Positions 8,898-14,158 of a stretch of DNA of 64,000 bases are shown here, piece by piece. The first letter of the stretch is position 1. Each line of letters begins with the position of its first letter. The notes beneath the pieces are model-generated. The model did no database searches. It was given only the letters and a program-made list of their open reading frames with translations, and was not told the DNA's origin. The position numbers and the translations under genes were made by a program. Origin of the DNA: Haliotis cracherodii (Eukaryota); assembly GCF_022045235.1 (NCBI RefSeq), contig NW_027266284.1:4650001-4714000 (forward strand), read 5' to 3'.

Positions 8898-10655
8898 TTA
8901 GAAGAAGTCCCTGGTGCCAGACGAGAGACTGGAGCTGTACTCAGCCAGGAGAGCTTCCAGGTCCTCCAGAGTGTCCTGGGGCTCCTCCAGTCTTGCCTGC
9001 TTCACAGCTTGGGGCACCTCGCTGTTGTCATCTGGGCACTTCCTCTTGCGTGAGGGCAAGGACACCTTACTGGGCTCAGCAGTGGGTTTCCTCTTTTTCC
9101 TTAAAATAAGCTTAGTAAGATACAGATATTCCACATCATATTCATCATCAGAGTTGGGCTCAGTTCTGTCCACTGCCTTGACAGGACTTACACTTACTGG
9201 TGCAGCAATGACGACACCTGACTTAAGACTCTCTGATGCTGAAACAACCTTATCCTTTACATTCTTAACAGGGACAGGGAAGGTTTTACAACCTGTACTG
9301 CGCAAGACAGACTTTGACTTTATGTAAGCACCATCTGCAGACAACAATTGTTCATCAAAACTAAGCTTAGATGAGGATTTAATGATACCATTATCACCCG
9401 AGTGCTTAGTGATACGGTTCCCAAGGGGTCTGCTCTGGGTTTTGATATGCTTAGCTCCAAGAGGCTGCGGCACAAAGTAGGGCTTGCTCTCAGGCTGATG
9501 CTTGCTTATTTTCTTCTTAGGAATGTGAGGCTTTGGCTGAGGTTTGGGCCGGAAAGTGCGGGGTTTGCGTTTGCAGGGCTTAAGCTCAGGTTTTTTGGTT
9601 TGGGGTTTGGGGTTGCTTGTTGTAGACATGGCAGAAGTATCAACATGGGCTACAGACTGGGGATGAACTGGACCAGGTAGGTCAAGTTGGGGCAGAACAC
9701 AGAAGGCCTATTGGGTGATACAGTCATTGTATCATTTTTATATTACATGATCACATAAATACAATGGAAGTATATCTCTACTATAAACTTTATAAAGCAA
9801 GTATAATCATCTTTTGATATACATTTTGAAATAATCAACAACAACCAAATACTCCTTCATACCTCTGGTCTCATCAGCTCCAGGTCTAGCACTGAACTGG
9901 GCAGGCTGACAGGCGGCTGGCTGACAGGCATCGTCTCCCTACATCTACTGCAAGGTGGTGGCTGGACTGCAGGAGTAAGGGGGATACCAGTCACAGATGG
10001 CTGAACTCCAGGCTGCAGGAGTTTTGGCTGTAGGTAACCATCACCCAGGGTGAGGTTAACAGGGTTACCAGCTGGTATACAGATAGTGTTATGATCTACC
10101 AGACATCTGGTCCCATCTCCCATCACCACTGTCGGCAACCCGGAGGGCAAGCGGGTCACAGGCACTGTAACAGTGAATAGTTACTAAACTGCCTACAAAA
10201 TAATTCGTCATTTTGATAACACTGAAAACCAGTATCTAACTGTAAACCAGTTCGTTTGATTTACGTCTTTTGAAAAGAAGTCTAGTGTGTCTTCTTCATT
10301 TTCCCTCTGTCAAATATGTCATGCCTCATGTTTACTTTATACCAGTACATCATAAGTAATTGCCCTAGTCCTAAAGTCCTTGCCACTCACCATTTAAAGG
10401 GTTTTGTTTGGCCTATATGTTATTGGAAGGACTAGTGGACTAAAACTATTAGTTTCTATCGCTACAGTGCCTAAAGTGTTAAGGTTATTCATAACTCACT
10501 TTGCAAACTCGGACTAAATACAGACACTGAAAATAGAAATTGGGGTATGGAAAACGTCAGCGTTTCATTGTTTGCATTGTAAACATATAAGGTAAAATAC
10601 ATATTGCTTCACTGGCAAAATGCAAATTTCATATACCTGCCGTAGTAGGATTCAT
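8898..10655 (-). CDS. Orphan three-exon gene, copy 2, intact, 376 aa; join complement(10637..10655, 9863..10164, 8898..9707)
   Basis: Same splice sites as copy 1. Carries an in-frame 3-nt deletion near the start of exon 3 (GCC TTC TGT instead of GCC TTC TCC TGT), upstream of the Met that starts the 243-aa ORF. Confidence 0.8.
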
Positions 10656-11000
10656 TGTTTTTTCCACTTCTTCAAGTTGTATACACTTTTCGAGTTGTAT
10701 TTTGCACGATAAAACTGCAAATACTTCCAGTGATATCTCTCAAAATGGCGGACACACAGGAAGGGCTAACTGTTGTCATGACGCCGCTACTTTCGGCAAA
10801 GGCACGCATGCGTCGACTTTATGCATAACTTGCACTTCCGTCTCTTTATTGTGTAAACATAGATAGATCCACACGAACACTTCCTACGTCACTTGTTTAG
10901 TTTTCGATGAAATGCGACTGTCATTCCAAGGGAAGCTACTCCGGGAGAGTTTATGTATATAAAAAGAGTTACCCTTCCCGAAAGAAGATTTTATGAGCGC
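10656..11000 (-). promoter_or_regulatory. Putative promoter/5'UTR of copy 2
   Basis: CAAAATGGCGG at 10741-10751, ACGCATGCGT palindrome near 10804, CACTTCCG near 10833. Confidence 0.55.
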
Positions 11001-11087
11001 TTTAAGTGATTCACACACATACTTGGAGCCCTATACAGGCTATGTTTGCAATAAGGTGTCGTAGCGTTTCATGTTAGATACAGTGCT

Positions 11088-11089
<2 letters not shown>

Positions 11090-11141
<52 letters not shown>

Positions 11142-11167
11142 GTGGGGGGGGTGGGGGGGGGGGTGGG
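11090..11167 (+). repeat. (GA)n followed by a G5-T-G8-T-G11-T-G3 tract
   Basis: GA run 11090-11137; G tract 11138-11167. Confidence 0.95.
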
Positions 11168-11901
11168 CATTATGGGAAGATTAATGATATGACGGCGTTA
11201 GAAGCACGTGACGAAATGGGAGGAGCATGAGGGCAGGAGAGGGGAAGATAACTTCAATGAAAGGACTGAGGTATGTGTGACGGAGGTAAAGGCAGGCAAA
11301 GAAATCAGGGGAAAAGGGAGCAGGAGAGGGGGAGTAAAGTACAGTGGGAGGACCGAGGTAGGGTAAGGTAGGGAAATCGGGGACATGTGAGCAAGAGAGG
11401 GGAAGTGAAGTACAGTGAGAGAACGGAGGAAGGGACTGGCGAGGAAATCAGGGACATGTGAACAGGAGAGATGAAGTGAAGTACAGTGGGAGAACGGAGG
11501 TAGGGTCAGGTGGGGAAATCAGGGACATGTAAGCAGGAGAGGTGAAGTGAAGTACAGTGGGAGAACGGATCAGCTTGACGGTTTTAGGGGGAAAGGAACT
11601 GTAATTATACAACGGAGACAGGGGCAGATGGTGACATGGGGGCAGCAAAAGGCGCAGAAGAGGGGAAGGCAACTATAGTAGTTTGGCGTAGGGAAGTGCA
11701 GTGGGAGGACGGAGGTAGGGGCAAGGGATGAAATCAGGGACATGGGTGCAGGAGAGTGGAAGTAAAGTACAATGGGAGAACGGAGGTAGGGTCAGGTGGG
11801 GAAATCAGGGACATGGGAGCAGGAGAGGGGAAGTGAAGTACAGAGGGAGAACGGAGGTAGGGGCAAGGGATGAAATCAGGGACATGGGAGCAGAAGAGGG
11901 G
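11168..11901 (-). repeat. Rearranged type B minisatellite remnant in the palindrome centre
   Basis: G-rich B units in the copy 1/2 orientation up to ~11901, where the sequence switches to the plus-strand unit. Confidence 0.85.
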
Positions 11902-12049
11902 ATAATTACTATATACAATGACAATGAACTGCCTAAACATTAACATATTTAGTGTCAGTGCACTGTATCTAAAATGAAACGCTACGGCACCTTATTGCAA
12001 ACATAGCCTTTCAAGGGATCCAAATACGTGTGTGAATCAATTAAAGCGC

Positions 12050-12390
12050 TCATAAAATCTTCATTCAGGAAGGGTAACTCTCTTTATATACATAAACTCT
12101 CCCGGAGTAGCTTCCCTTGGAATGACATTCGCATTTCAACGAAAACTAAACAAATGACGCAGGAAGTGTTCGTGTGGATCTATCTATGTTTACACAATAA
12201 AGAGACGGAAGTGCAAGTTATGCATAAAGTCGACGCATGCGTGCCTTTGCCGAGAGTAGCGGCGTCATGACAACAGTTAGCCCTTCCTGTGTGTCCGCCA
12301 TTTTGAGAGATATCACTGGAAGTATTTGCAGTTTTATCGTGCAAAATACAACTCGAAAAGTGTATACAACTTGAAGAAGTGGAAAAAACA
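12050..12390 (+). promoter_or_regulatory. Putative promoter/5'UTR of copy 3, divergent from copy 2
   Basis: AGGAAGTG 12161-12168, TGTTTAC 12187-12193, CGGAAGTG 12206-12213, ACGCATGCGT 12233-12242 (NRF1-like), CCGCCATTTTG 12295-12305 (YY1). Confidence 0.55.
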
Positions 12391-14158
12391 ATGAATCCTA
12401 CTACGTCAGGTATATGAAATTTGCATTTTGCCAGTGAAGCAATATGTAATTTACCTTATATGTTTACAATGAAAACAATGAAACGCTGACGTTTTCCATA
12501 CCCCAATTTCTATTTTCAATGTCTGTATTTAGTCCGAGTTTGCAAAGTGAGTTATGAATAACCTGAACACTTTAGGCACTGTAGCGATAGAAACTAACAG
12601 TTTTAGTCCACTAGTCCTTCCAATGATAACATGTAGGCCAAACAAAACCCTTAACATGGTGAGTGGCAAGGACTTTAGGACTAGTGCAATTACTTATGAT
12701 GTACTGGTATAAAGTAAACATGAGGCATGACATATTTGACAGAGGGAAAATGAAGAATTTCTGCAGACACTATAGATTTCTTTTCAAAAGACGTAAATCA
12801 AACAGTTTACAGTTAGATATTGGTTTTCAGTGTTATCAAAATGACGAATTATTTTGTTGGCAGTTTAGTTAACTATTCACTGTTACAGTGCCTGTGACCC
12901 GCTTGGCCCCCGTGTTGCCGACAGTGTTGATGGGAGATGGTACCAGATGTCTGGTAGATCACAACACTATCTGGATACCAGCTAGTAATCCTGTTAACCT
13001 CACCCTGAGTGCTGGTTACCTACAGCCAAGACTCCTGCAGCCTGGAGTTCAGCCATCTGTGACTGGTATCCCCCTGCCTCCTGCAGTCCAGCCACCACCT
13101 TGCAGTAGACGTAGGGAGACGATGCCTGTCAGTCAGCCGCCTGTCAGCCTGCCCAGTTCAGTGCTAGACGTGGAGCTGATGAGACCAGAGGTATGCAGGA
13201 GTATTTGGTTGTTGTTGATGATTTCAAAATGTATATCAAAAGATGATTATACTTGCTTTATAAAGTTTATAGTAGAGATATACTTCCATTGTACTTATGT
13301 GATCATGTAATATAAAAATGATACAATGACTGTATCACCCAATAGGCCTTCTCCTGTGTTCTGCCCCAACTTGACCTACCTGGTCCAGTTCATCCCCAGT
13401 CTGTAGCCCATGTTGAAACTCCTGCCATGTCTACAACAAGCAACCCCAAACCCCAAACCAAAAAACCTGAGCTCAAGCCCTGCAAACGCAAACCCCGCAC
13501 TTTCCGGCCCAAACCTCAGCCAAAGCCTCACATTCCTAAGAAGAAAATAAGCAAGCATCAGCCTGAGAGCAAGCCCTACTTTGTGCCGCAGCCTCTTGGA
13601 GCTAAGCATATCAAAACCCAGAGCAGACCCCTTGGGAACCGTATCACTAAGCCCTCGGGTGATAATGGTATCATTAAGTCCTCATCTAAGCTTAGTTTTC
13701 CTGAACAATTGTTGTCTGCTGATGGTGCTTACATAAAGTCAAAGTCTGTCTTGCGCAGTACAGGTTTCAAGACCTTGCCTGTCCCTGTTAAGAGTGTAAA
13801 GGATAAGGTTTTTTCAGCATCAGAGAGTCCTAAGTCAGGTGTCGTCATTGCTGCACCAGTAAGTGTAAGTCCTGTCAAGGCAGAGGACAGAGCTGAGCCT
13901 AAGTCTGATGATGAATATGATGTGGAATATCTGTATCTTACTAAGCTTATTTTAAGGAAAAAGAGGAAACCCACTGCTGAGCCCAGCAAGGAGTCCCTGC
14001 CCTCACGCAAGAGGAAGTGCCCAGATGACAACAGCGAGGTGCCCCAAGCTGTGAAGCAGGCAAGACTGGAGGAGCCCCAGGACACTCTGGAGGACCTGGA
14101 AGCTCTCCTGGCTGAGTACAGCTCCAGTCTCTCATGTGGCACCAGGGACTTCTTCTAA
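12391..14158 (+). CDS. Orphan three-exon gene, copy 3, intact, 377 aa; join(12391..12409, 12889..13190, 13346..14158)
   Basis: ATGAATCCTACTACGTCAG|gtatat at 12410; ttacag|TG at 12889; GAG|gtatgc at 13191; aatag|GCC at 13346. Reading frame is continuous: MNPTTSVPVTRL...LMRPEAFSCVLPQLDLPGPVHPQSVAHVETPAMSTTSNPK...TRDFF. Confidence 0.8.

What the first reader, a model, noticed from the sequence alone, without database searches (positions are those of the whole stretch)
10637..12409. Array folds into a large palindrome with head-to-head promoters
Seen: copies 1-2 are on the minus strand and 3-6 on the plus strand. Arm homology stops at ~11086 and resumes at ~11960, and the strand switch is at ~11901 (GAGGGG|ATAATTACT). 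The start codons of copies 2 and 3 are 1.74 kb apart and divergent. The left arm reaches the window edge. The three intact copies are the two innermost ones plus copy 1. Inference: an inverted duplication that allows arm-to-arm gene conversion, as in mammalian Y ampliconic palindromes, and possibly shared regulation.
Basis: partly seen in the sequence, partly recalled or inferred. Interest (0 to 1): 0.7.

Follow-up and report, generated by a model that had tools for sequence, protein, structure and literature searches.

The report
Head-to-head abalone gene arrays, old inversion
An abalone carries six copies of an abalone-only gene in two rows joined head to head at a real junction, likely left by an old fold-back duplication, but the mirror genes are only about 96.6% alike and each keeps its own likely promoter, so this is not a gene-preserving palindrome like those of the mammalian Y.

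Summary
The geometry is right: copies 1-2 (minus) and 3-6 (plus) meet at 11901|11902, start codons are 1,736 bp apart, and copies 1-3 are the intact ones. The junction is real: contigs from 2 of 3 same-label DNA runs (two studies) cross it. The left arm runs 13 kb past the window edge. The gene is a 3-exon, Haliotis-restricted, predicted-disordered protein with 29 copies in this genome; the other arrays are head-to-tail. The 810-bp 'spacer' is just copy 2's own upstream satellite flank. Mirror spacers are sisters (98.1%, one 348-bp identical tract, permutation p=0.0015), which fits an inverted duplication plus occasional cross-arm conversion. The Y-palindrome reading fails: mirror genes 2/3 are 96.6% identical, rank below three other pairs, and arms average 92.5% (criterion over 99%). 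Plain tandem arrays elsewhere are more homogeneous and keep 20 of 23 copies intact, against 3 of 6 here. Each gene keeps its own conserved upstream block, about 1.4 kb apart. Best reading: an old fold-back-type inverted duplication of a gene-bearing macrosatellite array, now mostly decaying. Interest is modest.

The parts
516..2280 (-). Copy 1, intact 3-exon gene (exons 2280-2262, 1785-1484, 1328-516), 377 aa
2770..4640 (-). Upstream flank of copy 1: (GA)39, about 600 bp unique, 71-bp satellite
5333..6822 (-). Spacer downstream of copy 2; mirror partner of 17729-19208 (96-99% in blocks)
5840..6187 (-). 348-bp tract identical to 18354-18701 on the other arm; candidate arm-to-arm conversion tract
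8898..10655 (-). Copy 2, intact (exons 10655-10637, 10164-9863, 9707-8898), 376 aa
10696..10844 (-). Conserved upstream block of copy 2 (mirror of 12202-12350, approximate); inferred core promoter/5' UTR
11092..11901 (-). Central spacer (810 bp): GA microsatellite, G-run and truncated 71-bp satellite = native upstream flank of copy 2
11901..11902 (.). Head-to-head junction; 1 bp microhomology judged from sister copies; crossed by contigs of runs X1 and X5
11902..11954 (+). 53 bp upstream of copy 3 that copies 1, 4, 5, 6 also have but copy 2 has lost
12202..12350 (+). Conserved upstream block of copy 3 (91-93% mean identity to 15 paralogs elsewhere; ETS-like site at -185, GCATGCG at -157); inferred core promoter/5' UTR
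12391..14158 (+). Copy 3, intact (exons 12391-12409, 12889-13190, 13346-14158), 377 aa
18354..18701 (+). Right-arm partner of the 348-bp identical tract
22899..24670 (+). Copy 4, +1 base in a C-run of exon 2 (stop at codon 80); exon-3 frame of 243 aa still open
31423..33132 (+). Copy 5, pseudogene (exon-2 acceptor deleted, further indels)
38300..41259 (+). Internal 21-bp satellite block joined to a truncated upstream flank of copy 6
42187..43947 (+). Copy 6, pseudogene (stop at codon 128)
46092..64000 (+). Terminal 21-bp satellite of the right arm, running to the contig end 2,365 bp past the window; its reverse complement caps the left arm at about -13,257 to -4,796

Best explanation
Two polar tandem arrays of a Haliotis-restricted 3-exon gene are joined head to head at 11901|11902, most likely by an old fold-back-type inverted duplication. 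Inferred steps: a break fell in the 71-bp satellite about 0.9 kb upstream of copy 2; the end folded back or switched template just upstream of that gene's promoter; synthesis copied the two-unit array and its 21-bp satellite cap in reverse, leaving copy 2's flank as the single-copy spacer. The right arm then likely grew by tandem duplication (copies 4/5 are the closest pair; copy 6 follows a satellite block), and short conversion events likely shuffled sequence among all copies, across the inversion too, too rarely to keep the arms alike. Each gene is inferred to run from its own promoter, as in the tandem arrays; the arrangement is probably a by-product of macrosatellite instability.
For: Shown: junction crossed by X1 (piece 11859-12292, 43 bases left of it, 6 mismatches and 1 gap in 435) and X5 (11841-12295, 61 bases left, 11 and 1 in 456). 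Arrays on C21, C56 and the main C9 array are all head-to-tail and end 3' in the same 21-bp satellite; both arms here do too, in mirror. Spacer is native flank of one arm, 810 bp, inside the 766-70,466 bp range of human fold-back spacers (PMC3907307, passages). Mirror spacers u2/u3 share 22 of 37 non-singleton two-state sites against u1/u4/u5, 7 derived alleles against 1 for the opposite group; copy 1's downstream unique spacer best matches units 4/5 in 6 of 7 tiles. No remnant of a simple reciprocal inversion (71-mer or copy-3 flank) between -20,000 and -4,700, no second near-identical copy of the left flank, and no near-identical third set of copies among 29. Conversion: permutation test global p=0.0015 for u2/u3, 0.04 for a copy 1/3 tract on opposite strands.
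Against: Only 1 bp of microhomology, judged from sister copies because copy 2 has deleted the site; the 13 simple human junctions had 2-8 bp. Mirror genes 2 and 3 are not sisters in the gene-core tree, so later exchange must be invoked. A clustering test for recombination in the gene cores was significant at one window size only (p=0.04) and not after CpG sites were removed (p 0.16-0.43). A fold-back needs a second healing junction, which lies beyond the contig end and was not seen. Copy 6 shows that 21-mer-to-truncated-gene joints arise, and the repeat at the left end is cut by the satellite; both fit the inversion rival.
Confidence: 0.55

Rival explanations
1. A tandem array first duplicated a super-unit (two genes plus 21-mer cap) head to tail; the first super-unit was then inverted in place, with deletions at both breakpoints.
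For: Also predicts u2/u3 and u1/u4-5 pairing. Copy 6 sits behind a 21-mer block with a truncated flank, the joint this model needs before copy 3. The interspersed repeat at about -13,267 stops at the satellite while three relatives continue 75-300 bp further.
Against: Needs both breakpoints at array ends plus two deletions; no 71-mer or copy-3 flank remnant at the far-left end, and no 21-mer at 11902.
Confidence: 0.3
2. A selected, Y/X-type ampliconic palindrome: arm-to-arm conversion preserves the inner genes and the head-to-head layout co-regulates them.
For: The inner pair is intact while the distal right-arm copies are broken; a 348-bp mirror tract is identical; u2/u3 divergence (19/985) is lower than u1/u4 (37/956), Fisher p=0.014; junction present in two studies' runs.
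Against: Copy 2/3 cores 96.6%, below 4/5 (97.9), 1/3 (97.6), 3/4 (97.2); the tandem C21 array is 96.3-100%. Arms 92.5% overall. 20 of 23 copies in plain tandem arrays are intact against 3 of 6 here (Fisher p=0.08). In the tandem C9 array the broken copies are also the three nearest the 21-mer cap, so position explains the pattern without a palindrome. Both genes keep full own upstream blocks.
Confidence: 0.1
3. Assembly artefact: two haplotypes or contigs joined in opposite orientation.
For: The contig ends 2.4 kb past the window in satellite. The longest listed pieces of X2 and X11 stop at 11902 with 81 and 60 unlaid letters.
Against: X1 and X5 contigs cross the junction. Pieces stopping at 11902 are expected from copies 1, 4, 5, 6, which have the ordinary flank there. 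No N in the window.
Confidence: 0.03

Closest known systems
Human germline inverted duplications formed by fold-back (PMC3907307; abstract and passages read)
   Same: Inverted copy begins at an internal point of the original arm; single-copy spacer contiguous with one arm; spacer length in range.
   Different: Here old (3-4% diverged), seen in more than one study's runs, inside a gene-bearing satellite array; 1 bp rather than 2-8 bp microhomology; no terminal deletion shown.
D4Z4/DUX4 macrosatellite arrays (PMC13558733; passages read)
   Same: One gene per multi-kb satellite-rich unit, several loci, within-array homogenisation, inverted sub-arrays (bonobo array in 5 sub-clusters of alternating strand; inverted DUX4c).
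   Different: Unrelated 3-exon protein without a homeodomain or any Pfam hit; units 6.6-10.5 kb; no expression or function known; subtelomeric position not shown.
Mammalian X/Y ampliconic palindromes (PMC8327919 passages; PMC3723533 search listing)
   Same: Divergent duplicate genes round a short spacer; arms longer than 8 kb; one tract that looks like arm-to-arm conversion.
   Different: Arms 92.5% (genes 96.6%) rather than over 99%; arms unequal (2 against 4 genes); mirror partners not privileged in genes; sex linkage and testis bias untested.
Caenorhabditis near-perfect inverted gene pairs (PMC1803023; abstract read)
   Same: Invertebrate, divergently oriented homologous gene pair.
   Different: Those are nearly perfect repeats with structure conserved across species; here imperfect, and no crossing piece was listed in 2 runs of the second species label.
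Uncharacterised Haliotis proteins, e.g. XP_048257501.1, XP_048243711.1, XP_046568270.1, XP_067650534.1
   Same: Same protein family (64-82% over the exon-3 part), same N- and C-terminal blocks.
   Different: Their automatic names (titin-like, TonB-like and so on) likely reflect composition only; none describes arrangement or function.

Membership tests
Mammalian sex-chromosome ampliconic palindrome | Inverted arms longer than 8 kb | tested here: met
   Left arm about 25 kb (-13,257 to 11,091), right arm over 50 kb, colinear but with unequal unit number
Mammalian sex-chromosome ampliconic palindrome | Arm-to-arm identity over 99% (PMC8327919) | tested here: not met
   92.5% over 5,983 columns; gene cores 96.6%; best 300-bp tile 99.7%
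Mammalian sex-chromosome ampliconic palindrome | Arm-to-arm conversion frequent enough to homogenise mirror genes | tested here: not met
   One mirror tract in spacer (p=0.0015) but copies 2/3 rank below 4/5, 1/3, 3/4
Mammalian sex-chromosome ampliconic palindrome | Sex-chromosome location and testis-biased genes | not testable with these tools
   No sexed coverage or tissue-labelled RNA offered
Fold-back inverted duplication | Single-copy spacer contiguous with one arm, about 0.8-70 kb | tested here: met
   810 bp native flank of copy 2
Fold-back inverted duplication | 2-8 bp inverted microhomology or a shared repeat at the junction | tested here: inconclusive
   1 bp by proxy from copies 1, 4, 5, 6; the true site is deleted in copy 2
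Fold-back inverted duplication | Mirror-ordered duplicated content | tested here: met
   u2 pairs with u3, u1 with u4/u5, 21-mer cap on both ends
Fold-back inverted duplication | Distal loss and a second healing junction | not testable with these tools
   Contig ends in satellite 2,365 bp past the window
Bidirectional promoter | Start sites under 1 kb apart (PMC2077898, start of abstract) | tested here: inconclusive
   Start sites not mapped; conserved blocks lie about 1.36 kb apart edge to edge, ATGs 1.74 kb
Bidirectional promoter | One shared intergenic element drives both genes | tested here: not met
   By sequence only: each gene keeps its own complete copy of the block found in tandem copies (GCATGCG in 21 of 21 copies aligned, the ETS-like site near -186 in 18 of 21); spacer is satellite
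Gene-bearing macrosatellite (D4Z4-like architecture) | Multi-kb tandem units each holding a gene, homogenised within arrays | tested here: met
   Arrays form separate clades, 94-100% within, 77-90% between
DUX/D4Z4 family proper | Double homeodomain ORF | tested here: not met
   No Pfam hit for exon 2 or exon 3; all named homologs are Haliotis

The most novel reading that the evidence does not exclude
Abalones have a D4Z4-like system of their own: a 29-copy lineage-specific gene for a disordered nuclear protein with an acidic LxxLL helix, carried in polar macrosatellite arrays always capped by one 21-bp satellite that silences and degrades the nearest copies; the head-to-head junction shields the innermost copies between two caps, lets mirror arms convert, and is kept by selection for a germline or early-embryo burst of expression.
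Probability: 0.1. Interest if true: 0.65.

Novelty: new member of a known kind. Interest (0 to 1): 0.3.

Why it matters
As found, it is a well-resolved example of an old inverted duplication in an invertebrate gene array, and a natural control: the same gene sits in head-to-tail arrays in the same genome, and these are more homogeneous and better preserved than the inverted arms, so inversion is not what protects this family. The more promising lead is the family itself: 29 copies, Haliotis-restricted, a fixed polar array plan with a satellite cap, and no description found in the searches run. If mirror conversion and germline expression were shown, it would extend palindrome biology to a mollusc.

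Tried and rejected
Raw reads X18: about 1 in 100 of the run was read, depth 0-0.5 at the junction, no information. X7 and X11 (second species label): no crossing piece among those listed, but the lists are cut (5,206 and 5,004 pieces not shown), so no claim of absence. No RNA holder listed. Two RNA-guess runs of other labels were laid: no exon-exon joint among 15 shown of 22; a piece in each begins at 13347, one base into exon 3, a weak hint only. The junction contigs of X1/X5 carry copy 4-6-type alleles rather than copy 1/2 alleles, but collapsed contigs may be chimeric, so not used. Pfam: 0 families for 2 of 2 queries. ESM Atlas best 0.79, lead level only. AlphaFold mean pLDDT 43, so no fold search was run. 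PHI-like clustering test mostly not significant. First polarisation attempt found no outgroup, repeated on a 450-bp part. Resemblance of the conserved EYDVEY stretch to a chromodomain start (recalled) rejected: no Pfam hit. dN/dS among intact copies 0.47-1.37 in 16 pairs printed, 0.47-0.79 between arrays: weak purifying selection, uninformative within arrays. Literature: searches (2 papers, unrelated by listing; 0; 0 for six record ids), 58 found no description of this locus or family; subscription papers and preprint supplements are not covered.
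Full report
Observation. Self-BLAST, the raw sequence and an own-genome search confirm six copies of a 2.3-kb gene core: 1-2 on minus, 3-6 on plus. Copy 2/3 mirror homology ends at 11091 and 11955; the strand switch is at 11901|11902 and that junction word is unique in the window. A 3-exon model (19, 302, 810-813 bp, GT-AG) gives open frames for copies 1-3 and broken frames for 4-6; the product matches NCBI Haliotis models end to end. ATGs are 1,736 bp apart.

The junction is real. 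Three DNA contig sets of organism A were laid. X1 and X5, from two studies, each have one contig that crosses the junction with 43 and 61 bases on the left and few differences. The longest listed piece of X2 stops at 11902, as expected from copies with the ordinary flank; so does that of X11 (organism B), and X7 (organism B) listed no crossing piece. The lists are cut, so frequency and age across species stay open. One of these runs could be related to the assembly's source; their contigs differ from the window at 7 and 12 places.

What the arms are. The unit is 71-bp satellite, unique flank, (TC)n, gene, an interspersed repeat, 55-bp satellite, unique spacer, 158-bp repeat. Left of the window copy 1's spacer continues and ends in 8.5 kb of a 21-bp satellite in reverse orientation, to about -13,257; the right arm ends in the same satellite in forward orientation up to the contig end. 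The genome holds 29 copies (29 of 29 candidates): 6 here, 8 on C21 260 kb to the left, 6 on C56, 9 on C9. The others are head-to-tail, and the C21, C56 and main C9 arrays also end 3' in the 21-mer; for the two outlying C9 copies no cap was seen in the stretch fetched. So this locus is two ordinary polar arrays joined at their 5' ends. The 810-bp spacer is copy 2's own truncated upstream flank; copy 3 starts 489 bp before its ATG and lacks the rest of its flank.

Origin. In about 1 kb of unique spacer, the mirror partners u2 and u3 are 98.1% identical against 93-95% to the others, and u1 is closest to u4/u5; 22 of 37 non-singleton two-state sites split u2+u3 from the rest, with 7 shared derived alleles against 1. 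A simple reciprocal inversion predicts 71-mer and copy-3 flank remnants at the far-left end; none was found. A triplication predicts further near-identical copies or a duplicated left flank; none was found. The layout matches human fold-back duplications, whose single-copy spacers are 766-70,466 bp (PMC3907307, passages), except that microhomology is 1 bp by proxy rather than 2-8 bp. A tandem super-unit duplication followed by inversion with deletions remains a fair rival: copy 6 shows a 21-mer-to-truncated-flank joint, and the repeat at the left end is cut short.

Conversion. A Sawyer-type permutation test finds a run of 45 of 95 polymorphic sites shared by u2/u3 (global p=0.0015 over 10 pairs), around a 348-bp identical tract at 5840-6187 and 18354-18701, and a weaker copy 1/3 tract in the end of exon 3 (global p=0.04 over 15 pairs). 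Among gene cores 763 of 1,653 informative-site pairs are incompatible, but their clustering was significant in 1 of 7 settings. Cross-arm exchange thus probably happens, yet not enough to matter for the genes: copies 2/3 are 96.6% identical, below 4/5, 1/3 and 3/4, while the plain C21 array is 96.3-100%. The inner arms align at 92.5% over 5,983 columns, against the over-99% criterion for X palindromes (PMC8327919, passages). Plain arrays keep 20 of 23 copies intact (8/8, 6/6, 6/9) against 3 of 6 here (p=0.08), and on C9 the three broken copies are again those nearest the 21-mer cap. The intactness of the inner copies therefore needs no palindrome.

Regulation. The stretch -189 to -40 from the ATG is 86-93% identical on average to 15 paralogs in other arrays, and conservation fades beyond about -340. 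GCATGCG at -157 is in 21 of 21 aligned copies and an ETS-like site near -186 in 18 of 21 (motif names recalled). Copies 2 and 3 each keep this whole block, about 1.36 kb apart across satellite. By sequence these are two ordinary promoters back to back; start sites were not mapped, and coupling through chromatin cannot be excluded.

The gene. Ten homologs by word search and five by profile over 1.84 billion representatives; every named one is Haliotis (one record has no name). No Pfam hit, Atlas best 0.79, AlphaFold pLDDT 43 with a short N-terminal beta motif and two weak helices. Conserved blocks include basic stretches and a C-terminal acidic LxxLL helix; a disordered nuclear adaptor or co-activator is my inference from these features, untested. 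Between-array dN/dS is 0.47-0.79. No paper was found by record id or topic.

Comparison and verdict. It works like a gene-bearing macrosatellite with an inverted sub-array, as in ape D4Z4 loci (PMC13558733, passages), and likely arose like a fold-back duplication; it is not a member of the sex-chromosome palindrome class. Earlier scan notes (unchecked) list several other tandem gene arrays in this genome, so amplification is not unusual here. Observation confirmed, interpretation partly supported, novelty: new member of a known kind, interest 0.3.

Noticed in passing
window 46092-64000; L001-L002; G000 C21:4305754-4317888, C56:35776185-35792508, C9:29177174-29195000: Five arrays or arms of this gene all end on their 3' side in 8-20 kb of the same 21-bp satellite in fixed polarity: a conserved array plan.
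   Followed up: partly
window copies 4-6; G000 C9:29152400-29177300: Broken copies lie next to the 21-mer cap in the right arm and in the C9 array, but not in the C21 and C56 arrays or the left arm.
   Followed up: partly
window 23400-23702: Copy 4's only frame break is one extra base in a C-run of exon 2; could be a homopolymer error or allele. Its 243-aa exon-3 frame is open.
   Followed up: no
window 12583-12636: Short very high-copy repeat inside intron 1 (contig depth in the tens of thousands).
   Followed up: no
window 8500-8717, 14545-14830 and equivalents: An interspersed repeat of about 250 bp, found many times in the 140 kb to the left, is built into every unit just 3' of the gene.
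   Followed up: no
L002 about 6090-6735 (window -13,912 to -13,267): LINE-like endonuclease fragment cut off by the 21-mer satellite at the far end of the left arm.
   Followed up: partly
G000 C21:4329849-4388700: The neighbouring 8-copy array has near-identical non-adjacent pairs (A5/A7 100%, A2/A4 99.7%), suggesting recent two-unit duplications or an assembly repeat.
   Followed up: no
window 12297 and 10750 (approximate): A YY1-type motif at -95 is present in 5 of 6 window copies and in none of 15 paralogs by the strict pattern used.
   Followed up: no
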